Positions 2,647-10,418 of a stretch of DNA of 64,000 nt are shown piece after piece. The DNA comes from Escherichia phage ETEC-TG, in the sequence record OR786310.1; one strand, given 5' to 3'. Within the stretch, counting starts at the first letter, position 1, and every line of letters starts with the position of its first letter. Both the position numbers and the translations under genes were made by a program. The notes below the pieces were generated by a model. That model did not search any database, was not told where the DNA came from, and saw only the letters and a list, made by a program, of their open reading frames with translations.

Positions 2647-3119
2647 TGGCAGATTTAACTACGATCAAAATTTCTGATCTTACACAAACAACCTCTGTGT
2701 CTGATACAGATTTCTTTGTAACAGATCAGGCTGGAATAACAAAGAAAACTTCTTTGAAAGTGCTGTTGAGTGGTGCAGGGGTAACTAGAAACCGTCTGAA
2801 TGCACGGGGAACAGTAACTAGCACCTTGGCATTAGATATTAGTTCAGCAGAATATTTTTCTGCAACTTTATCTTCTGCAACGTGCACAATTAGTTTTACT
2901 AATATTCCAGTAGCAACAAATGCAGTTTTAAACTTTACTTTAGCTTTGCGTCAAGGAAGTGGTGCAAATAAAGTCGTATGGCCTTCTTCTGTAAAATGGA
3001 GTTTTGGTCGCCCCCCAGTTTTGAGTTATCGTCAAGGTGCAACAGACACTTTTGAGTTTATCAGTTATGATAATGGAGCAACTTGGACAGGTAGCTTAGT
3101 TTTAGCAGGAGTTATTTAA
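2646..3119 (+). CDS. Hypothetical structural protein
   Basis: 157 aa ORF with ATG/stop overlap in the structural operon; no recognisable motif. Confidence 0.45.
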   Translation: MADLTTIKISDLTQTTSVSDTDFFVTDQAGITKKTSLKVLLSGAGVTRNRLNARGTVTSTLALDISSAEYFSATLSSATCTISFTNIPVATNAVLNFTLALRQGSGANKVVWPSSVKWSFGRPPVLSYRQGATDTFEFISYDNGATWTGSLVLAGVI

Positions 3120-5995
3120 TGTCAAGAGTTAAGCACAATATTGACAACACGTTTCAGTTGATTGAAGGGTTGGTTCAGTTTTTGGAAAGAAATACTGGTC
3201 TTACCATAGATCCTACGGTTCAGCACTACATTATCAACCCACAAAACGTATTGGCGAACAACAGACACTTTATTAACTGGACAGCGCAGGAAGGGCAACC
3301 AAACGGTGACGCTACTACCGAAGGTCAATCTGTGCTTATCACTGGTTTTGCTTATGCATATTTGGCTACAGGAGATAAAAAATATCTTGAATCTGCCGAG
3401 AAGTATTGGCAAGCCTATATAGATCACTTCTTCGGGGGCCAACCTATTCCTGATCCTCCAGCTAAGTATCGTCCCAACTGGATCATCAATGGTAAAGAAC
3501 CACGTTTAGCACACTACCCTCTCACAGATGATGGGTATCCTACGCACGGTGGGTTCAAAGGTAGCATGATGACTTGGATTAACGGAAGGACTGTTATTCC
3601 TAAAGGTGCGCCACATTGGGGAGAATACTTAGATAAAGCTTGGTTTGCTTTCAATGGTAATCTTGGTTGGAACTCTGTTAACGCAACAGTGTATGCAACT
3701 AACCCAGATGGTTCAACCAACTGGAAAGAATATGGAGATCAGTGGGACGTTGAATGGATTATAGATCGTCTAGGACGTAAAGTTGATTGGGATGGTAACA
3801 TTTTATCCACTGGGCATAGCTTTGCAGAATATGGAACAGTGCAACTTAAAAACGCTTCTGTGAACGGAGACTATAAATTCAACTACGCTACATGCAATCC
3901 TGTAGAACACGGTGGATATCTGCTTAAGCGTAATGAGATGTGGCATAACCGTCCTGTAAACGTTCCGGTAGAGTTAGGTTATCAAGACAATGCTTCCGAT
4001 GCTGAAACGTGGTGGTGTGATGCAAACTACTTGATGTATCAGATCACAGGAGAGAGAAAATACTGGCTTTGCTGGCAATCTTCTTTATTGTTGTGTCAAG
4101 ACTACTCAAACATCGATATGTTTGATAAATTCTTCCGTAGATCTACGACAGCAATAATTCCTTTTACAGATGGTATCTCGTATGATTACTCATACCCATC
4201 TACAGCAATACCTAAATATTCTCGTGACGAGTTAGGATACACAGTAATTCGCCAAGATGTTGCAGCACAAACAACTCTAGAACAACAGGCAGTTTGGTTC
4301 AGAGTGGATCAGAATTCAAAACTGCGTATTGAGTTTCAAGGCGTAGATGATGCAGGGGAAGGTGTTCTTTTCCGTCCAGAGTTAGAATTAAGCAAGACTA
4401 AGAGTGAAACAGACACAGTGACATATCGTTGTGGCTTACCTCTTGGTGCAGCTAATATGACTAAGATGGATATACCTTTATCCAGTTTTATGCGCACTGA
4501 ACCTCCTGGAGGTGGTGTATATATTATTGCTGAACCTAGAATCATTGTTGACTGGGGAAGCAATACTGTGATACAATATAAATATGCAACTGGTATTGCT
4601 GGGACAAATAGTGATCAGATAGTTTCTGCTAATATGGATTCAGATGGTGGTTTTACTATTGGGTTTTGGTTAACACCAACTAAAACAACCAATTTAAAAT
4701 CTATTACGTATCGTTCATACGCAGATGATTTTAACATCACTATTACGGATTCCGCAGGTTGGAGATGGTGGGCCATGTTAGAAAAAACAAATTCTGCATG
4801 GGTTACTAAAGCTTTAAGTCCTGCTGATTTCAAATTAAGTACTTGGCAACCTAATCACAATGACACAGAGACAAAACCTTCGTCAATAAACCTGACTGCT
4901 GTTGATCAGATGAACATTGCATTGGATTCTGAACCTGCAAATGGCTTGACAGGGGCAATCGACTTTTATTGCGTTAACGATATCCCATCTTTGTATTCTT
5001 CAGCCGCTGGTGATGATTACACAATGTATTTCAGGGTTACAGTTTCATCTGAAAATCCTTATACAGCAAAACTTGGAGATTGTACAATACTGGACTACAA
5101 ACTTGACAGTTTGAATTATACTCCAGGAATCATCCCATTTTCCAATATTAGTGATCCTAATACAGCATTATATGACGGTTGGCGTGGTATTCCTTACCCA
5201 GGTTATCAATACCCATCCTTATATTGTTTTAAAGGGAGAGATATTGACTGGGTTCGTATGAACAACAGTATAGACTTTTTATATGATTCACAAATGTGGT
5301 TTTATAATAAGTTTGCCCCTGTAATGCCTGGGCCAATGGCACAAGCTTATGTTTGGGATCGTTGGGATGCTCATAAATATGGAAACAAAAATGAGTTCAC
5401 AATGTATCATTGGAACGATAAAGCTTGGGATGGTTATGAAGCAAGAGCATTCTTCTGTGCGTGTCATACGGTATACGAACTAAAGCGACGAGGAGCCGAA
5501 GTTCCTGAAAAACTTTTAACAGTTTGTAAAAACTGGATCAACTACCTGAAGTGGTTCCAAGATAACAACGAAGGAAGAACACCAACAATATTTTATCCCA
5601 ACGGAGAAGTGGCTGCGCCTGTAGATGACTTTACAAGTCACATGTCTGCGCTCTTTATGGCGGGATGTGCTATAATGGGGATGGCTGGATATGATTCAGA
5701 AATTCCTAACATTAGAATAGTAGCAGATCGCTGTTTTGAACTTATTCAGGAAAACTATATTGTTCTTGGTCCTAATCACGTCATGAATGGTTGTTGGAGT
5801 GCTGCTCCTAGACCAGACAGTGATAACGGAGTCTTCTTTGGCTTCCACGCTGGAGAGTTGTTACGTGGTTTTGGGTTGTATGCTTTATACAAAAAACTTA
5901 ATCCCCAAAATGCATTACCTGTTTTGGATTCGAGCAATATTCCTGCACTTACTGTTTTGACAATGGCAAACATTAGTGTGGACGTTACCGAGTAA
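3119..5995 (+). CDS. Large structural protein, putative tail fibre / receptor-binding protein
   Basis: 958 aa ORF in baseplate/fibre module; Trp/Tyr-rich composition; function inferred from context. Confidence 0.45.
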   Translation: MSRVKHNIDNTFQLIEGLVQFLERNTGLTIDPTVQHYIINPQNVLANNRHFINWTAQEGQPNGDATTEGQSVLITGFAYAYLATGDKKYLESAEKYWQAYIDHFFGGQPIPDPPAKYRPNWIINGKEPRLAHYPLTDDGYPTHGGFKGSMMTWINGRTVIPKGAPHWGEYLDKAWFAFNGNLGWNSVNATVYATNPDGSTNWKEYGDQWDVEWIIDRLGRKVDWDGNILSTGHSFAEYGTVQLKNASVNGDYKFNYATCNPVEHGGYLLKRNEMWHNRPVNVPVELGYQDNASDAETWWCDANYLMYQITGERKYWLCWQSSLLLCQDYSNIDMFDKFFRRSTTAIIPFTDGISYDYSYPSTAIPKYSRDELGYTVIRQDVAAQTTLEQQAVWFRVDQNSKLRIEFQGVDDAGEGVLFRPELELSKTKSETDTVTYRCGLPLGAANMTKMDIPLSSFMRTEPPGGGVYIIAEPRIIVDWGSNTVIQYKYATGIAGTNSDQIVSANMDSDGGFTIGFWLTPTKTTNLKSITYRSYADDFNITITDSAGWRWWAMLEKTNSAWVTKALSPADFKLSTWQPNHNDTETKPSSINLTAVDQMNIALDSEPANGLTGAIDFYCVNDIPSLYSSAAGDDYTMYFRVTVSSENPYTAKLGDCTILDYKLDSLNYTPGIIPFSNISDPNTALYDGWRGIPYPGYQYPSLYCFKGRDIDWVRMNNSIDFLYDSQMWFYNKFAPVMPGPMAQAYVWDRWDAHKYGNKNEFTMYHWNDKAWDGYEARAFFCACHTVYELKRRGAEVPEKLLTVCKNWINYLKWFQDNNEGRTPTIFYPNGEVAAPVDDFTSHMSALFMAGCAIMGMAGYDSEIPNIRIVADRCFELIQENYIVLGPNHVMNGCWSAAPRPDSDNGVFFGFHAGELLRGFGLYALYKKLNPQNALPVLDSSNIPALTVLTMANISVDVTE

Positions 5996-6003
5996 GGGGT
6001 AAA

Positions 6004-8157
6004 ATGAAACAAGCTATATTTACTGTCACGCGAGACAAGAGAGTAAATGCGAGTTCATTTAACTACACGACTGTTGACGGAACAGCAGTCGCTGGTAGAG
6101 ATTATATTGCAAAATCGGGAACACTTGTGTTCCCTGATGATGCTGATTCTGCTACTATTGTGGTTGAAGTATTTGAACGACCAAAGAACTCAATAGATCT
6201 TAACTTCTCCCTCCAAGTTTCAGGGATTAGTCAAAATAACATGATGGTTGAAACAACCATCAATTGTATTATAACTACTATCCAAGAAAATACTACTCCA
6301 ATAACTTGGACTACAAAAGACGTTAAAATGTTCTCTCCTATGTATTGGACAATAGATTCTCAAGCAACGGAAAGTTGTTCTATTGTATCTCATGGAGACT
6401 CTTTTACTGCAAGATTTGTAAACAGAACAACAGCAGGTTTGGCAGGGGTTATCTGGAGCACAGTTGACAAATATGACCATAAAGGTGTTGGGTATTTGCC
6501 TCACACAGATTTAAGTTCAGAGAAACTTTGGTTTAAAATGGAAATTAGTCAAAACATGCCAGGTTTTAAAGAAGAACCTTTGGTGCCGACTTTGACTGTA
6601 ACTCTCCTGGATAAAAGTGTTCATTATGTCAGTTTAGGATTCTACGCTTCAGATATTTCAGAAGATGGTAAAACAGCCACAATAAAGTTAGATTTTGGTA
6701 ATATCTTTTCTGGCCCTAATAATGATATTCCTTTGGATATGAGTGCTGTAGATAATATTTTCTTCTCTTTGATTACAGCAAGGTATGAAAAAATAGAAGA
6801 GGTTGTACCTATTGACAGTCAAGAGGCTTGGTTTACTTTCACTCTTCTTGAACCTACTTCTGGTTACAGTATGATGAAAGTCAGCAACCTTGTCCAGCCT
6901 GAACATGATATTCGCATGTGCACATCTTATGATGATATGTATAACCTGACTCCAGAGAGAGTTATTTATAATACATATGCACTAGGTTATCGTGGAATGA
7001 TTAACCATTACAACGGAATGTCTCACTATTATGAGTTCTCATGGAACGGAACATCTTGGGCTTTAAATAGATCTGTTTTCCTGAATCCGGCTACAGAAGC
7101 TTGGCTAAATAGTTTCCATTCTATAGCAAACGAGAAGGGCTACACGATAATGAACTCTTTAAGTTTTGAATTGATGAGCACAGTTTGTCCTGTAGAATGG
7201 GTCCAGCATGATTGGAACGATGCTCTTGCAGCAACAGGGTATGAACCTCCTAGTTATGTGTTGTCTCCAACTATTGACGAAGGTATGGAATATTTGCAAA
7301 ATGTTATTAACAAAATAGCATCTATTTCGCAAGCTAATAATATTCCAGTTGTCATTCAAATTGGTGAGCCTTGGTGGTGGTATAATACAGCAAGTAAAAT
7401 GCCTTGCATATATGATTACACTACCAAACTGGCATTCAACACAGAAACAGGCTTATTTGCACAAGATGCAGGAACAATAGATAATTATAAAACAGGAACA
7501 CCGTTTGACGAATACTATGCATTTTTGTCTCGTAAACTAGGGTTAAGAGTTACAAAGTTTGCAACAGACACTAGAGCAACTTATCCAGGAGCTAAAGTAA
7601 CATTGCTGCCATTCTTACCATCAATTATCGGCAATGGTTTAATGGAGAAAGTTAACTTTCCGTCTGATTACTACATTCCTGAAGCTTTTGATTTTTATTG
7701 TTCAGAGTGTTACGACTGGCTTCTGGAAGGTAAAATGATGAAAGCATTTGATGCAATTACCATACCACATGAAAAATTAGGTTTTGAATATTCTGATATT
7801 CACTATCTTGCAGGTTTTGTTCCAGATGCTACTCTTGCACCTTTGTATGGCTTTGATCCTGAATCAAACTACCGCACGTATCTTTGGAAAATGATTATAG
7901 GTAACATAGTGTTGAACGCCAATAAGTTCAATGGACTTACACAATATATATGGGCCTATCCTCAAATAATGCACGATTCTATCACGGTAGTTAATTCTCA
8001 ATCCCAAGTTTTCTATATGGGTAACGTGCCTTTGAACGCTTATTTACAGGATATCACTCTTAAACAGGTAAATGTTGAGATTGCCACCATAAGTGGAATT
8101 ACATTAGCCACTAAATCTGGAGAAGATTTAGTAACAACACAAAAATTTTATATATAG
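6004..8157 (+). CDS. Structural protein with N-terminal Calx-beta-like domain
   Basis: N-terminus FTVTRDKRVNASSFNYTTVDGTAVAGRDYIAKSGTLVFPDDADSATIVVEVFE matches the Calx-beta consensus (T.DGTA.AG.DY...G.L.F); 717 aa. Confidence 0.5.
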   Translation: MKQAIFTVTRDKRVNASSFNYTTVDGTAVAGRDYIAKSGTLVFPDDADSATIVVEVFERPKNSIDLNFSLQVSGISQNNMMVETTINCIITTIQENTTPITWTTKDVKMFSPMYWTIDSQATESCSIVSHGDSFTARFVNRTTAGLAGVIWSTVDKYDHKGVGYLPHTDLSSEKLWFKMEISQNMPGFKEEPLVPTLTVTLLDKSVHYVSLGFYASDISEDGKTATIKLDFGNIFSGPNNDIPLDMSAVDNIFFSLITARYEKIEEVVPIDSQEAWFTFTLLEPTSGYSMMKVSNLVQPEHDIRMCTSYDDMYNLTPERVIYNTYALGYRGMINHYNGMSHYYEFSWNGTSWALNRSVFLNPATEAWLNSFHSIANEKGYTIMNSLSFELMSTVCPVEWVQHDWNDALAATGYEPPSYVLSPTIDEGMEYLQNVINKIASISQANNIPVVIQIGEPWWWYNTASKMPCIYDYTTKLAFNTETGLFAQDAGTIDNYKTGTPFDEYYAFLSRKLGLRVTKFATDTRATYPGAKVTLLPFLPSIIGNGLMEKVNFPSDYYIPEAFDFYCSECYDWLLEGKMMKAFDAITIPHEKLGFEYSDIHYLAGFVPDATLAPLYGFDPESNYRTYLWKMIIGNIVLNANKFNGLTQYIWAYPQIMHDSITVVNSQSQVFYMGNVPLNAYLQDITLKQVNVEIATISGITLATKSGEDLVTTQKFYI

Positions 8158-8165
8158 GAGTAAAA

Positions 8166-10418
8166 ATGTCAACTACAATTACTAATTTACCCGAAACATC
8201 AAAAGTTAATGGTTCTGATTACCTGGTTTTAGACCAACCTGATAAGACTGTTAAAAGCACAGTTTCCAACTTTCTTACTGACACTGGGGTGGTTTTAGCC
8301 ACCCAGTTGAAAGATACAGATGGAGCTACCAAGTATCCAGAACTTCAGATTGCACGCTGGCGAGACGAGGGAGATATCAGAGGGTGGGGCACGGAAACAA
8401 ACGGTGATGTTACCGAAGCAATCATTGAGGCGGTAGCGGCGACAAGCGGCACTATCATTGTGCCACCTGGTGACTATGTTGCCACACCTACGCTGGCCGA
8501 AGTTCCGGCTGTGCTGAAATTGCTGTCCCGCGCTGATTTTCGTGGCAGGTTGACCATTAATCTGCCAGCTGGGACGGTCAATCTGAACGAGCAGACAGTC
8601 ATAAATTCTAACAGGAGTAATCTGTGCAAGGTCATTGGCGTAGCGCTAAACACGAGCGTTACAGGGCTTGTTTCTGTAGCTGGGTCAAGCAAGCAATATT
8701 CGATAACTCTGTCCCTGGCAGATGCCTCGCAGGTGTCAGTCGGTGACTATGCCATCTTCAGGCACGATCTGACGGGAACTGGTTTTTTCCACATACACTG
8801 CGGGGGCTGGCGGGTAACGGCTGTGTCCGGCAATAACGTGACCGTGCTCAACACATGCGTCTTGGATTCATTCCCTTCGTCAACCGTTACCGGTGGATCA
8901 GTCTCCATTATCAAGTCCGTTCTGAAATACACCGGCTGTGATGGGATTAGACCGGAGGGCGGCGACTGTATCGGAATTATTGATAATGTCGCCATCGTGG
9001 GTGATTACAACCTTGCTACCGGCGCAGGGACAATCGGTGCTCACGGCGTAATATCCTCAACACCCGTAGTAGTCACCGACGCCGCCAACGCATCCAACAA
9101 CGTAGCGAATATGGCGGCAGCGCTGGCCCTGGGACGAAATATTGCAATCAGTGCCTGGGGTGAGCAAGGGCTGGCAGTGTCGGGTCGCTCTGCGCTTGTG
9201 TGTAACTTCATCGCATCCTGTGCCAACCGTAAGCGTGGTATTTATGCGGAAGGTGCTCATATACGCGGGAAATTTATGATCGCCTCCGGAAACGGAGAGG
9301 ACGGCATTATTTCAGATACCACTGGATTTGTGCAGGCTGCATATGCCGTTTGCTCGGGTAACGGATTAAACGGGTTCTGGTCAACAAACCTCTCTCTTAT
9401 TGCGGCGGCAAGGGGAGTGGCTTGCTGTAACAAAACAAATGGTGTGGAGGCAAGGGGGCAGACAAGGCTCGCATTTGATCTCGGCCTTTCCTACGGAAAC
9501 GTTCTAAACGGTGTCAGCGCCTCTGATGGGGGCATGATTGACTTTGATGGCGGCATGTCAAGAGACAATCTCGTTGACGGGATCGCAGCGACATACAATG
9601 CAGTAGTTGACGCGAACAACGCCTCCAGTACCACCAATGGTCGTTACGGTACTAACGTGACCTCCGCGTGCATTATCATTTCAGGGACTGGTACTATATC
9701 TGGGAATACAGGGGCGGATGTTCGTGATAACGGCAATGGGATGGTTGTCCGACCAGACGGCACGATCTACCCATTCACTGGGGTCGCACAGGGTAATCTG
9801 TCGCTAAGAAACACCGTCAGCGGCGCGGGGGTTGACATTGTTCCTACAAGTATAGGTGACTTAATTCTGAGCTTTAAAAACTCAGCAGGCGGAACGCTTA
9901 ACCCGTTATACAACTTCAAAGCCGACGGTACTCAGTACCCTCAAAATGACGCGACGCAAAGCCTTGGGCGTGCCGCTAACCGATACAATGTCGGTTTCTT
10001 CGCTGGCGGAACACAGTCAACTTCAGATGCCACACTTAAAGACCCTATCCGGGAGTTCAATCAGGCCGAACTTAATGCAGCAATGCGAATCGCAAAAATG
10101 CTGGGTTTCTGGACATGGCTGGATGATGCCGGAAAACGGCTTCATGCAGGGACAACAGTGCAAGCGGTACTGGAGGTGCTGGAAGAAGAGGGACTCGACT
10201 GGCGTAACTATGGTTTCATCGGATTTGATGAGTGGGATGATGAATATATCCCAGTAACCATTGAGGTAGATGGCGAAGTCGTTGAAACAGGGGAAACGAA
10301 ATTAGTGCGTGAGGCTGGTTCTGTCTGGCAACTGCGCGATCAGGAATTTGACCGTTTCGTTATGCGTGGACTTTCTGAAAGGCTGAGTATTATAGAAAGT
10401 AAGCTGGATTTACTGTAA
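8166..10418 (+). CDS. Tailspike protein with beta-helix-like receptor-binding domain (GC-rich, mosaic)
   Basis: 750 aa; AT-rich conserved N-terminus followed by a markedly GC-richer body with Gly/Asn/Ser/Thr-rich repeats typical of pectate-lyase-type beta-helices. Confidence 0.55.
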   Translation: MSTTITNLPETSKVNGSDYLVLDQPDKTVKSTVSNFLTDTGVVLATQLKDTDGATKYPELQIARWRDEGDIRGWGTETNGDVTEAIIEAVAATSGTIIVPPGDYVATPTLAEVPAVLKLLSRADFRGRLTINLPAGTVNLNEQTVINSNRSNLCKVIGVALNTSVTGLVSVAGSSKQYSITLSLADASQVSVGDYAIFRHDLTGTGFFHIHCGGWRVTAVSGNNVTVLNTCVLDSFPSSTVTGGSVSIIKSVLKYTGCDGIRPEGGDCIGIIDNVAIVGDYNLATGAGTIGAHGVISSTPVVVTDAANASNNVANMAAALALGRNIAISAWGEQGLAVSGRSALVCNFIASCANRKRGIYAEGAHIRGKFMIASGNGEDGIISDTTGFVQAAYAVCSGNGLNGFWSTNLSLIAAARGVACCNKTNGVEARGQTRLAFDLGLSYGNVLNGVSASDGGMIDFDGGMSRDNLVDGIAATYNAVVDANNASSTTNGRYGTNVTSACIIISGTGTISGNTGADVRDNGNGMVVRPDGTIYPFTGVAQGNLSLRNTVSGAGVDIVPTSIGDLILSFKNSAGGTLNPLYNFKADGTQYPQNDATQSLGRAANRYNVGFFAGGTQSTSDATLKDPIREFNQAELNAAMRIAKMLGFWTWLDDAGKRLHAGTTVQAVLEVLEEEGLDWRNYGFIGFDEWDDEYIPVTIEVDGEVVETGETKLVREAGSVWQLRDQEFDRFVMRGLSERLSIIESKLDLL

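What the first reader, a model, noticed from the sequence alone, without database searches (positions are those of the whole stretch)
6004..8157. Calx-beta-like domain at the N-terminus of a structural protein
Residues about 5-60 match the Calx-beta consensus closely. This calcium-binding beta-sandwich is known from Na/Ca exchangers and bacterial surface proteins and is rare in phage structural proteins. It could be a Ca-dependent adhesion or decoration domain on the baseplate or fibre.
Basis: partly seen in the sequence, partly recalled or inferred. Interest (0 to 1): 0.45.

Follow-up and report, generated by a model that had tools for sequence, protein, structure and literature searches.

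The report
Incomplete Calx-beta domain anchoring a phage receptor-binding protein
The Calx-beta domain is real, but it lacks the calcium-binding residues and its first strand, and it most likely works as a plug-in joint that fastens a known sugar-recognising tail protein of a phAPEC8-like E. coli phage to the protein encoded just upstream.

Summary
Observation confirmed. ORF 6004-8157 (717 aa) has a Pfam Calx-beta match at aa 4-82 (42.5 bits, cut-off 27), and its modelled N-terminal domain superimposes on solved Calx-beta domains (TM 0.75-0.80).

Five of six mappable NCX1 Ca2+ ligands are replaced. The protein is the ortholog of phi92 gp142 / rV5 gp34, an N4 gp64/gp65-like protein already proposed as the receptor-binding protein for the NGR glycan. 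Some GenBank records already call it "Calx-beta domain protein".

What is new: the domain starts at strand B, so strand A is missing. In eight lineages the protein encoded directly upstream ends in a related ~17-aa peptide that extends the Calx-beta profile match into the strand-A region. Two unrelated carrier proteins bear this peptide, always next to the Calx-beta gene, and their homologs elsewhere lack it. The peptide is under purifying selection. Two "Rosetta-stone" proteins fuse carrier and core covalently, with a short linker replacing peptide plus Calx-beta.

Best reading (about 0.5): a split Calx-beta joint that attaches the receptor-binding protein to its carrier. Strand donation itself is inferred, not shown.

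The parts
6004..8157 (+). Whole gene: 717-aa ortholog of phi92 gp142 / rV5 gp34, an N4 gp64/gp65-like lateral-fibre component and candidate receptor-binding protein for the NGR glycan
   Evidence: ORF; Pfam Calx-beta + NCTSP_N + TIM-barrel_NCTSP; phrog_6040 over the full length; synteny with phi92 gp141-gp142-gp143; literature
6004..6279 (+). N-terminal Calx-beta module, aa 1-92: six strands (B to G), strand A missing, canonical Ca2+ ligands absent
   Evidence: Pfam aa 4-82 to profile 24-104/119; AF2 strands 2-9, 17-25, 38-43, 49-56, 66-73, 85-90; Foldseek top hits all Calx-beta; ligand mapping
5906..5992 (+). C-terminal 29-aa extension of the upstream 958-aa tail protein (phi92 gp141 ortholog). 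Its last 18 aa, IPALTVLTMANISVDVTE (5939-5992), are the proposed strand A/A' donor for the Calx-beta module
   Evidence: Extension absent from PVP-SE1 gp50 and the rV5-type homolog; related peptide on an unrelated small-wedge carrier in rV5-type lineages; extends the Calx-beta profile match; pN/pS 0.12-0.16
3119..5995 (+). Upstream carrier gene: 958-aa tail protein (phi92 gp141 ortholog, phrog_2871)
   Evidence: covalently fused to the NCTSP core in P0121 and P0123
5996..6003 (+). 8-nt intergenic spacer (ggggtaaa) with a Shine-Dalgarno-like G-run; the two genes are in different frames
6313..6885 (+). NCTSP_N beta-domain, aa 104-294
   Evidence: Pfam PF23844 aa 107-292, E 3.2e-16; AF2; matches N4 gp65 residues 51-114
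6898..8043 (+). TIM-barrel_NCTSP alpha/beta barrel, aa 299-680, with the NGR-associated GMSHY motif at aa 338-342 (nt 7015-7029)
   Evidence: Pfam PF23845 E 4.4e-79; N4 gp64 E 3e-30; Foldseek 9yf5_SA E 6.6e-21; GMSHY
8044..8154 (+). C-terminal tail, aa 681-717 (aa 695-717 modelled as disordered); co-occurs with the downstream tailspike gene
   Evidence: pLDDT <50 for aa 695-717; 95% identical to the phi92 type; present only where a tailspike follows
8166..10418 (+). Downstream tailspike (750 aa): conserved N-terminal anchor aa 1-75 (8166-8390), foreign high-GC body, C-terminal Peptidase_S74 chaperone

Best explanation
The gene encodes the Phapecoctavirus ortholog of phi92 gp142 / rV5 gp34. Its core is a beta-domain plus a TIM barrel homologous to the coliphage N4 sheath proteins gp65 and gp64, and this core recognises, and perhaps modifies, the NGR surface glycan. 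Its N-terminal Calx-beta module is not a calcium sensor or adhesin. It is an incomplete, six-stranded Calx-beta sandwich that serves as the attachment socket of the protein. The missing first strand (A/A') is supplied in trans by a conserved ~17-residue C-terminal peptide of the protein encoded immediately upstream, here the 958-aa gp141-type tail protein. The result is a non-covalent joint that fastens the receptor-binding protein to its carrier on the baseplate periphery. Peptide and socket travel together as a cassette between carriers: the small wedge protein in rV5-type phages, gp141 in phi92/phAPEC8-type phages. SHOWN: the fold; the absence of Ca2+ ligands; the absence of strand A in the ORF; the peptide's phyletic linkage to the Calx-beta gene; purifying selection on the peptide; covalent carrier-core fusions in other phages. 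INFERRED: that peptide and socket bind each other, and that they do so by strand complementation.
For: (1) Fold and truncation. The Pfam match starts at profile position 24 on residue 4. AF2 gives six strands. In 77 bacterial Calx-beta repeats the phage-type domain leaves 20-25 residues per ~112-aa period for strand A. No in-frame upstream extension is possible.
(2) Eight lineages on two non-homologous carriers end in a related peptide, -1 to 12 nt before the Calx-beta start: window ...IPALTVLTMANISVDVTE*, L009 ...DDILIYVDNISVDATE*, L011 ...MPTLVKVSVLDTTVNFS*, rV5 ...TTTIYCESITVNATRQEG*. One Pro and one Val are invariant.
(3) Reciprocal presence. gp141 homologs in PVP-SE1 (929 aa) and rV5-type phages (865 aa) stop at the globular domain, without the 29-aa extension. 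The phi92/Ro121 small wedge proteins lack the ~20-aa extension that rV5, L009 and L011 small wedge proteins carry.
(4) The peptide reads as strand A in register. The bacterial consensus is ...PSLQLSISSVSVVEEGGSATFTVTR and the window junction is ...PALTVLTMANISVDVTE/MKQAIFTVTR. Appending the real peptide moves the Pfam alignment start from profile 24 to 7-14 (window), 24 to 8-20 (phi92) and 39 to 6-8 (rV5), with scores of +1 to +4.7 bits for window and rV5 and +0.1 to +1.5 bits for phi92; 13 of 14 controls do not extend. With a bacterial full-length HMM all eight lineages gain +1.4 to +5.7 bits, and 0-30 of 500 shuffles reach the real score. Two Erwinia phages whose upstream proteins lack the peptide behave like the null.
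(5) pN/pS of the extension is 0.12-0.16 at near-saturated pS, like the adjacent globular domain at 0.15-0.23.
(6) Rosetta stones. P0121 (1557 aa) and P0123 (1795 aa) fuse a gp141 homolog (44% and 39% identity) through a ~25-aa linker directly to NCTSP_N + TIM (52% and 44% identity), with no Calx-beta. P0121 lies in the tail module of an SU10-like podophage.
(7) Calx-beta occupies the N-terminal slot of other phage glycan-active tail proteins, alongside known anchor domains.
Against: Per-lineage score gains are small (1-6 bits). Against natural C-termini the real peptide is exceeded in 0-14 of 44-45 cases, so the strand-A resemblance alone is only suggestive, and the eight peptides are homologous rather than independent trials. 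A profile of [peptide + domain] did not align the peptide to strand A of solved eukaryotic Calx-beta structures and scored no better than the domain alone (63.9 vs 64.7 bits). AF2 models the six-stranded domain confidently on its own within the full-length protein (pLDDT 84-94), so it might be stable without a seventh strand. Erwinia phages Hena1 and Fifi067 also have strand-A-less N-terminal Calx-beta modules but no matching upstream peptide. Acinetobacter prophage homologs have no N-terminal module at all. The N-terminal module is the least conserved part of the protein: 34-40% identity vs 54-69% for the barrel in distant relatives. NGR dependence has been shown for Vequintavirus and Justusliebigvirus, not for Phapecoctavirus.
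Confidence: 0.5

Rival explanations
1. One reading: a Ca2+-binding Calx-beta domain that mediates calcium-dependent adhesion to the host surface, or decorates the baseplate or fibre.
For: Genuine Calx-beta family and fold membership. Calx-beta repeats are common in bacterial surface proteins (P0111-P0120). D33 of the DY motif, equivalent to Ca2+ ligand D421 of NCX1 CBD1, is invariant.
Against: Five of six mappable CBD1 ligand positions are non-acidic or not conserved (E58, R59, P60, S63, L66). The E385 segment and the C-terminal DDD are absent. The acidic DD..E..E cluster of the bacterial consensus is missing. The fold matches the integrin beta4 Calx-beta equally well, and that domain does not bind Ca2+ (recalled from Alonso-Garcia et al. 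2009, not checked with a tool). The N-terminal position and the Rosetta-stone junction argue for a proximal role, not a distal one.
Confidence: 0.05
2. An autonomous six-stranded beta-sandwich that acts only as a spacer or Ig-like accessory glycan-binding module. The conserved upstream C-terminal peptide has a different job, for example binding the NCTSP core or another baseplate protein, or it was simply co-transferred with the gene's 5' region.
For: AF2 folds the domain with high confidence without a seventh strand. Erwinia phages have the same truncated module without a matching upstream peptide, including a free-standing 117-aa version. Ig-like beta-sandwiches are common accessory modules on phage structural proteins (established knowledge, Fraser et al. 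2006, recalled). The strand-A similarity is statistically modest and was not seen against PDB structures.
Against: It does not explain why the peptide tracks the Calx-beta gene across two unrelated carriers and is absent from carrier homologs elsewhere. It does not explain why the peptide is under protein-level purifying selection. It does not explain why peptide + module sit exactly where fused homologs have a linker, or why the peptide extends the Calx-beta profile in the correct register in three lineages.
Confidence: 0.3
3. The two genes are expressed as one polypeptide by stop-codon readthrough or frameshifting, which makes a complete Calx-beta domain in cis.
For: The read-across sequence resembles a complete domain. 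In three lineages (L009, L011, L013) the two ORFs are in the same frame.
Against: Frame offsets are 0, 1 and 2 in different lineages, and the spacing varies from -1 to 12 nt. Each junction has its own stop codon, a Shine-Dalgarno-like sequence and an ATG. In the window a second in-frame stop (TGA) follows within 4 codons. No slippery motif is conserved.
Confidence: 0.03

Closest known systems
[quoted passage not shown]
   Same: Ortholog: 77% identity (P0002 type), the same three-domain architecture including the N-terminal Calx-beta, the same gp141-gp142-tailspike synteny, and the GMSHY motif.
   Different: It belongs to another genus (Phapecoctavirus), for which NGR dependence has not been reported in the papers I could read. 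None of those papers mentions the Calx-beta module or how the protein is attached. The 2026 phi92 cryo-EM paper does not place gp141 or gp142.
Coliphage N4 non-contractile sheath proteins gp65 and gp64 (PDB 9lc0, 9yf4, 9yf5)
   Same: NCTSP_N and TIM-barrel_NCTSP domains. gp64 matches at E 3e-30 over aa 361-606, with Foldseek E 6.6e-21, TMt 0.62 and rmsd 2.8 A. gp65 matches aa 101-164 and 270-344. Both are linked to the same glycan receptor pathway.
   Different: N4 splits the functions between two chains that form a heterodimeric sheath round a podophage tail. Here one chain sits on a contractile-tail baseplate, so the name 'non-contractile tail sheath' is a misnomer. N4 gp65 has no Calx-beta module: it has ~50 residues before NCTSP_N.
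Calx-beta domains of Na+/Ca2+ exchangers (NCX1 CBD1/CBD2, CALX CBD1) and integrin beta4
   Same: Same Pfam family and fold (TM 0.75-0.80) and the same DGTAxAGxDY signature.
   Different: Strand A is missing and the Ca2+-coordinating acidic residues are absent. In that respect it resembles the non-Ca2+-binding integrin beta4 domain more than CBD1.
Donor-strand complementation in chaperone-usher pili, and beta-strand 'handshakes' between phage sheath subunits
   Same: This is a works-like comparison. An incomplete Ig-like sandwich would be completed by a strand from another polypeptide, giving a stable non-covalent joint. The phi92 sheath initiator and sheath use inter-subunit beta-sheet augmentation.
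   Different: Here the donor would be a C-terminal peptide and the acceptor a Calx-beta domain. No structural proof exists yet. The weak Foldseek matches to pilus chaperones (E ~0.05-0.1) reflect generic Ig-like similarity only.
Fused carrier-core proteins P0121 (SU10-like podophage) and P0123
   Same: The same two building blocks in the same order: gp141-like domain, then NCTSP_N + TIM.
   Different: They are joined covalently by a ~25-aa linker, with no Calx-beta and no extension peptide.

Membership tests
Calx-beta (Pfam PF03160) | Profile match above the curated gathering score | tested here: met
   42.5 bits (whole protein) and 47.4 bits (isolated domain) vs a cut-off of 27
Calx-beta (Pfam PF03160) | Beta-sandwich fold superimposable on solved Calx-beta domains | tested here: met
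   The top 32 PDB hits are all Calx-beta domains; TM 0.75-0.80 and rmsd 2.0-2.3 A for most crystal and cryo-EM entries
Calx-beta (Pfam PF03160) | Complete seven-strand domain including strand A/A' | tested here: not met
   The alignment starts at profile position 24 of 119 on residue 4; the model has six strands; no upstream in-frame extension is possible
Ca2+-binding Calx-beta (NCX CBD1 type) | Acidic Ca2+ ligands (E385, D421, D446-448, E451, E454, D498-500; numbering recalled from Nicoll et al. 2006 and anchored on the E454K entries 3gin and 3us9) | tested here: not met
   Only D421->D33 is kept. E58, R59, P60, S63 and L66 occupy the other mapped positions, and the rest are absent
NCTSP family (N4 gp65/gp64-like; PF23844 + PF23845) | Both Pfam domains above threshold, and structural similarity to N4 gp64/gp65 | tested here: met
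   59.5 and 266.5 bits vs 27; phmmer E 3e-30; Foldseek E 6.6e-21
NCTSP family (N4 gp65/gp64-like; PF23844 + PF23845) | Forms a sheath around a non-contractile tail | tested here: not met
   The genome is a contractile-tail myophage with baseplate wedge, hub, spike and sheath-initiator genes. The name does not describe the role here.
NGR-targeting receptor-binding proteins (phi92 gp142 type) | Conserved GMSHY motif in the N4 gp65-homologous segment | tested here: met
   G338-M-S-H-Y342; G338 and S340 are invariant across 44 homologs
NGR-targeting receptor-binding proteins (phi92 gp142 type) | Infection depends on nfrA/nfrB/wecB (NGR synthesis) | not testable with these tools
   Shown experimentally for Vequintavirus and Justusliebigvirus. 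I found no data for Phapecoctavirus.
Glycan deacetylase / PgaB-like enzyme | Catalytic residues: CE4 Asp-His-His metal triad, or GH153-type acid residues | tested here: inconclusive
   PgaB 4f9j is only a weak fold match (E 4.9e-7, rmsd 6.8 A), ranking behind GH31/GH50/GH2 barrels. Invariant D310, D311, E389, E455, D563 and E568 exist, but no catalytic assignment was made.
Split-domain (strand-complementation) joint | A partner peptide that co-occurs with the incomplete domain and matches the missing strand | tested here: met
   Eight lineages on two carriers, reciprocal absence, and profile extension in register
Split-domain (strand-complementation) joint | Physical insertion of the peptide as a strand of the sandwich | not tested

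The most novel reading that the evidence does not exclude
A single Pfam domain is split between two adjacent genes. The carrier's C-terminal ~17-aa peptide is strand A, and the N-terminus of the receptor-binding protein is strands B to G of one Calx-beta sandwich. This peptide-plus-socket pair is a portable cassette that evolution has moved between unrelated baseplate proteins (the small wedge protein and the gp141-type protein) and has replaced by a covalent linker in podophages. Together with a second peptide-type joint (the C-terminal tail of this protein and the conserved N-terminal anchor of the downstream tailspike), it defines a chain carrier -> gp142-type protein -> tailspike. That chain would identify the unassigned arm of phi92 'fibre I'.
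Probability: 0.4. Interest if true: 0.7.

Novelty: new variant of a known kind. Interest (0 to 1): 0.55.

Why it matters
rV5-, phi92- and phAPEC8-like myophages are broad-host-range therapy candidates. Their 'Swiss-army-knife' adsorption apparatus is still not mapped gene to structure. [quoted passage not shown]

The comparative evidence here yields a concrete, testable wiring diagram. The C-terminal peptide of gp141 (or of the small wedge protein in rV5-type phages) docks the Calx-beta socket of the NGR-binding protein, and that protein's C-terminal tail in turn goes with the exchangeable tailspike.

If confirmed, it would be a clear natural example of a domain split across genes to make a modular joint. 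It would also provide a defined 18-residue tag and ~90-residue socket for swapping receptor-binding modules between phage chassis. Finally, it corrects a tempting mis-annotation: Calx-beta here does not imply calcium binding.

Tried and rejected
(1) Ca2+ binding: rejected by ligand mapping.
(2) Profile of [peptide + domain] against PDB sequences: the peptide was not aligned to strand A of NCX, CALX or integrin structures and there was no score gain (63.9 vs 64.7 bits). Even strand B is not aligned in most of those hits, so the test is uninformative rather than contrary.
(3) My first guess that DUF2460 was an N-terminal Dit-like anchor was wrong: it is C-terminal in those homologs.
(4) Recoding or fusion of the two ORFs: rejected on variable frames and spacings.
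(5) P0132 looked like an internal Calx-beta 'Rosetta stone', but Pfam finds no Calx-beta in it.
(6) BLAST found no small-wedge-to-NCTSP fusions among 24 long homologs. Their N-terminal parts are something else, for example DUF7941 in P0125 and P0126.
(7) No gp141 homolog lies next to the Calx-beta gene in rV5-type loci. It is encoded elsewhere and lacks the extension.
(8) Schwarzer et al. 2012 (PMC3457257) is not held, so the original gp142 description could not be read.
(9) NCBIfam gives no informative name.
(10) Whether the barrel is a deacetylase, a glycosidase or only a binding module was not resolved.
Full report
WHAT IS THERE. The ORF is exactly as reported: 6004..8157, + strand, 717 aa. 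The window is a phAPEC8-like Escherichia myophage (Phapecoctavirus, Stephanstirmvirinae). The 9.3-kb region around the gene is 95-99% identical to 64 deposited phage genomes. Pfam gives three domains: Calx-beta at aa 4-82 (E 7.9e-11, 42.5 bits, cut-off 27), NCTSP_N at aa 107-292 (E 3.2e-16) and TIM-barrel_NCTSP at aa 299-658 (E 4.4e-79). PHROGs places the whole protein in phrog_6040, 'unknown function'. An AlphaFold2 model built on 44 homologs is confident (pLDDT 91.8, pTM 0.88). It shows a beta-domain at aa 3-90, a second beta-domain at about 104-294, an alpha/beta barrel at about 300-680, and a disordered tail at 695-717.

The isolated N-terminal domain (pLDDT 85.3) has only Calx-beta domains among its top 32 PDB matches: CALX CBD1, NCX1 CBD1/CBD2 and integrin beta4, with TM 0.75-0.80 and rmsd about 2 A for most of the crystal and cryo-EM entries. 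The domain match is not new information, however. GenBank record PV191315 already names the gene 'Calx-beta domain protein'. The public protein clusters carry PF03160 as a precomputed hit. The module is a fixed feature of this phage group, with 263 of 50,697 phage records hit by tblastn. In viral proteins at large it is uncommon: 7 BFVD models match at E<=1e-3, mostly tail proteins with glycan-active domains.

WHAT THE PROTEIN IS. It is the ortholog of phi92 gp142 (719 aa) and rV5 gp34. Its gene order is phi92's gp141 (958-aa tail protein), gp142, gp143 (tailspike with intramolecular chaperone), gp144, gp145 (baseplate wedge). The last two domains are homologous to the two proteins of the coliphage N4 'non-contractile sheath'. 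N4 gp64 matches at E 3e-30 over aa 361-606 and is the best structural match (Foldseek E 6.6e-21, rmsd 2.8 A). N4 gp65 matches aa 101-164 and 270-344. In N4, gp65 is the receptor-binding protein for NfrA and/or the NGR glycan. The BASEL work and Sellner et al. showed that Vequintavirinae and phi92-like phages share this 'glycan deacetylase' fibre component with N4 and depend on wecB/nfrB, that is on NGR. A 2026 preprint names the Gp142-type protein as the NGR receptor-binding protein and reports a perfectly conserved GMSHY k-mer. The window protein has GMSHY at aa 338-342, and G338 and S340 are invariant in 44 homologs. NGR dependence of Phapecoctavirus itself was not reported in the papers I could read. 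The label 'non-contractile tail sheath' used in several records is inherited from N4 and is a misnomer in a contractile-tail phage. Whether the barrel is an enzyme is unresolved. After N4, the closest folds are GH31/GH50/GH2 barrels, with PgaB further down.

CALCIUM BINDING IS NOT SUPPORTED. phmmer aligns aa 15-78 without gaps to NCX1 CBD1. The ligand numbering is recalled from Nicoll et al. 2006 and anchored on the E454K entries 3gin and 3us9 seen. With that numbering, D421 maps to D33 and is kept, but it belongs to the structural DY motif. D446 maps to E58, which is Q, T or P in relatives. D447 maps to R59, D448 to P60, E451 to S63 and E454 to L66. E385 lies in a segment this ORF does not have, and there is no C-terminal DDD. 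The DD..E..E cluster of the bacterial Calx-beta consensus is likewise replaced. The local DDAD at aa 45-48 is not conserved.

THE DOMAIN IS INCOMPLETE. The Pfam alignment starts at profile position 24 of 119 on residue 4, and both models have six strands. In ten bacterial multi-repeat proteins the phage-type domain matches 77 repeats with a ~112-residue period. This leaves 20-25 residues per repeat for strand A/A'. The consensus reads ...AAPSLQLSISSVSVVEEGGSATFTVTRSG.... The phage ORF begins at the equivalent of 'ATFTVTR' (MKQAIFTVTR). No in-frame N-terminal extension is possible: the upstream gene stops at 5995, eight nucleotides earlier and in another frame.

THE MISSING STRAND APPEARS TO BE ENCODED AT THE END OF THE UPSTREAM GENE. 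The upstream 958-aa protein ends ...IPALTVLTMANISVDVTE*. Read across the stop and start codons, the junction matches the bacterial consensus in register, from the Pro to the Arg. Appending the real C-terminus to the domain moves the Pfam alignment start from profile position 24 to 14 (direct fusion) or 7 (two-residue linker) and raises the score from 47.4 to 48.4 or 52.0 bits. Nine controls gave 46.4-48.1 bits and eight of them did not extend the alignment.

SAME PEPTIDE, DIFFERENT CARRIER. In rV5-type genomes the gene order differs. There the Calx-beta gene follows the small (225-228 aa) wedge protein, which is the ortholog of phi92 gp146. Those wedge proteins carry a ~20-residue C-terminal extension that phi92 gp146 and its Phapecoctavirus ortholog lack, and the extension is the same kind of peptide. 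L009 ends ...DDILIYVDNISVDATE*, L011 ...MPTLVKVSVLDTTVNFS* and rV5 ...TTTIYCESITVNATRQEG*. The alignment of all eight has an invariant Pro and Val. For rV5, the real peptide extends the Pfam alignment from profile position 39 to 6, whereas four shuffles and a swapped peptide do not.

RECIPROCAL ABSENCE. The gp141 homologs of PVP-SE1 (929 aa, 73% identical in the last domain) and of rV5-type phages (865 aa) end at the globular domain (...GLYAMYRNLTR*...GLYAQYRGLYL*) and lack the 29-residue extension. So the peptide follows the Calx-beta gene, not the carrier.

STATISTICS AND SELECTION. With a full-length bacterial Calx-beta HMM, all eight lineages gain +1.4 to +5.7 bits from their own peptide. 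Between 0 and 30 of 500 shuffles reach the real score, 0-14 of 44-45 other C-termini from the window do, and 0-10% of internal 24-mers do. The upstream C-termini of two Erwinia phages that lack the peptide behave like the null. The extension is under purifying selection equal to the neighbouring globular domain (pN/pS 0.12-0.16 vs 0.15-0.23, with pS 0.69-0.90). The stop-to-start spacing falls in all three frame offsets, which excludes a conserved recoding mechanism.

ROSETTA STONES. An exhaustive HMMER search of 1.84 billion representatives found P0121 (1557 aa) and P0123 (1795 aa). P0121 residues 13-960 are 44% identical to the window's 958-aa carrier, covering its residues 9-941, and residues 968-1545 are 52% identical to aa 108-682 of the query. 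P0123 has the same arrangement. Both have NCTSP_N and the barrel but no Calx-beta. At the junction the carrier's globular end (...GIYLLY) is joined by about 25 residues to 'RQFLPRFWTIDSQPTESCS', the counterpart of query 'KMFSPMYWTIDSQATESCS' at aa 108. P0121 lies in the tail module of an SU10-like podophage. Carrier and core are therefore physically linked, C-terminus to N-terminus, and in the split phages [extension peptide + Calx-beta] occupies precisely that link. Other family members carry different N-terminal modules (DUF7941, and unrelated 60-180-aa segments) or none at all. In Erwinia phage depolymerases Calx-beta is listed among N-terminal motifs next to known anchor domains.

MECHANISM PROPOSED. 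The Calx-beta module is the socket of a non-covalent joint. The carrier's C-terminal peptide supplies strands A/A', completes the sandwich, and fastens the NGR-binding protein to the baseplate periphery. What is shown: the fold, the lack of Ca2+ ligands, the lack of strand A, the phyletic linkage, the selection on the peptide, and the covalent fusions. What is inferred: direct peptide-socket binding, and strand complementation as its mode.

WEAKNESSES. The per-lineage score gains are small. The eight peptides are homologous, not independent. A [peptide + domain] profile did not align the peptide onto strand A of eukaryotic structures. AF2 is content with six strands. Erwinia phages have the truncated module without an adjacent donor. 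I put about 0.5 on the joint model, 0.3 on an autonomous spacer or accessory module with the peptide doing something else, 0.05 on Ca2+-dependent adhesion and 0.03 on recoding.

A SECOND JOINT AT THE OTHER END. The last ~37 residues are 95% identical between this phage and the phi92 type, although the rest of the protein is 66-82% identical. They are missing from the 687-691-aa versions. Four genomes with the tail have a tailspike gene immediately downstream: the window, phi92, Ro121c4YLVW and P3322. Six genomes without the tail have none: ESCO32, ESCO13, Schickermooser, AMO3598, L012 and L014. Across the collection, 82 records have the full tail and 78 have the tailspike anchor at >=90% identity. 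The window tailspike and phi92 endosialidase gp143 share 76% identity over their first 101 residues but have unrelated bodies. The window tailspike body has 52.6% GC against 39.4% for the window. This suggests a chain carrier -> gp142-type protein -> exchangeable tailspike. That fits the L-shaped phi92 'fibre I', whose tip is gp143 and whose arm is unassigned.

VERDICT. The functional reading (Ca2+-dependent adhesion or decoration) is not supported. The protein as a whole is a known kind, a phi92 gp142-type NGR-binding fibre component. The incomplete Calx-beta and its partner peptide look like a previously undescribed attachment device, which is a new variant of known strand-complementation and N-terminal-anchor principles. 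It is worth a multimer prediction and a fit into the existing phi92 maps.

Noticed in passing
window 8044-8154 (aa 681-717 of the protein) and 8166-8390 (tailspike aa 1-75): The disordered, highly conserved C-terminal tail of the 717-aa protein is present only in genomes that carry a tailspike gene directly downstream: 4 of 4 with the tail, 0 of 6 without it, and 82 vs 78 records collection-wide. The tailspikes share a conserved ~75-aa N-terminal anchor on unrelated bodies. This is probably a second peptide-type docking joint.
   Followed up: yes
window 8391-9935: The tailspike body has 52.6% GC against 39.4% for the window and 43% for its own N-terminal anchor. This looks like a recently acquired foreign receptor-binding cassette, and it is the part of the 9.3-kb query not covered in most related genomes (77% coverage, two pieces).
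   Followed up: partly
L019 6691-11364 (P0121); P0123: Single-chain fusions of a gp141-type domain with the NCTSP core, with no Calx-beta. P0121 is in the tail module of an SU10-like podophage. So the carrier + core pair is shared by myophages and podophages.
   Followed up: yes
L015 3986-4339 (Erwinia phage Hena1); L016 4001-6418 (Erwinia phage Fifi067, N4-like): Hena1 encodes a free-standing 117-aa Calx-beta protein that also lacks strand A. Fifi067 has the same truncated module at the N-terminus of an 805-aa 'glycosyl hydrolase'. Their upstream proteins have no matching C-terminal peptide, so a strand donor, if there is one, is unknown.
   Followed up: partly
phage records MG065650, MG065682, MG065635, MG065674, MG065666 and others: About 20 records titled 'Campylobacter phage', with host C. 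jejuni, are 98% identical to E. coli Phapecoctavirus or Vequintavirus genomes. The host or organism labels look wrong.
   Followed up: no
annotations of the orthologous gene in public records: The same gene is variously named 'non-contractile tail sheath', 'capsid protein', 'capsid and scaffold protein', 'tail assembly protein', 'adaptator protein', 'baseplate protein with EPS depolymerase activity' and 'Calx-beta domain protein'. The Acinetobacter prophage homologs are widely named 'phage capsid protein'. Most of these names are unsupported.
   Followed up: no
homologs P0086-P0110, P0125 and P0126: The NCTSP core is also found with a C-terminal DUF2460 (TIGR02217) domain in alphaproteobacterial elements, and with an N-terminal DUF7941 domain in other proteins. 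The core is a widely shuffled module.
   Followed up: partly
window 1-64000: GC skew changes sign near 22 kb and again near 58 kb, consistent with switches in transcription direction between the structural module and the flanking blocks.
   Followed up: no
PMC13450770 (phi92 cryo-EM): The text gives inconsistent wedge stoichiometry (gp145 vs gp146 as the duplicated subunit), prints 'xxxxx' for the spike protein name, and never mentions gp141 or gp142 when listing fibre candidates.
   Followed up: no
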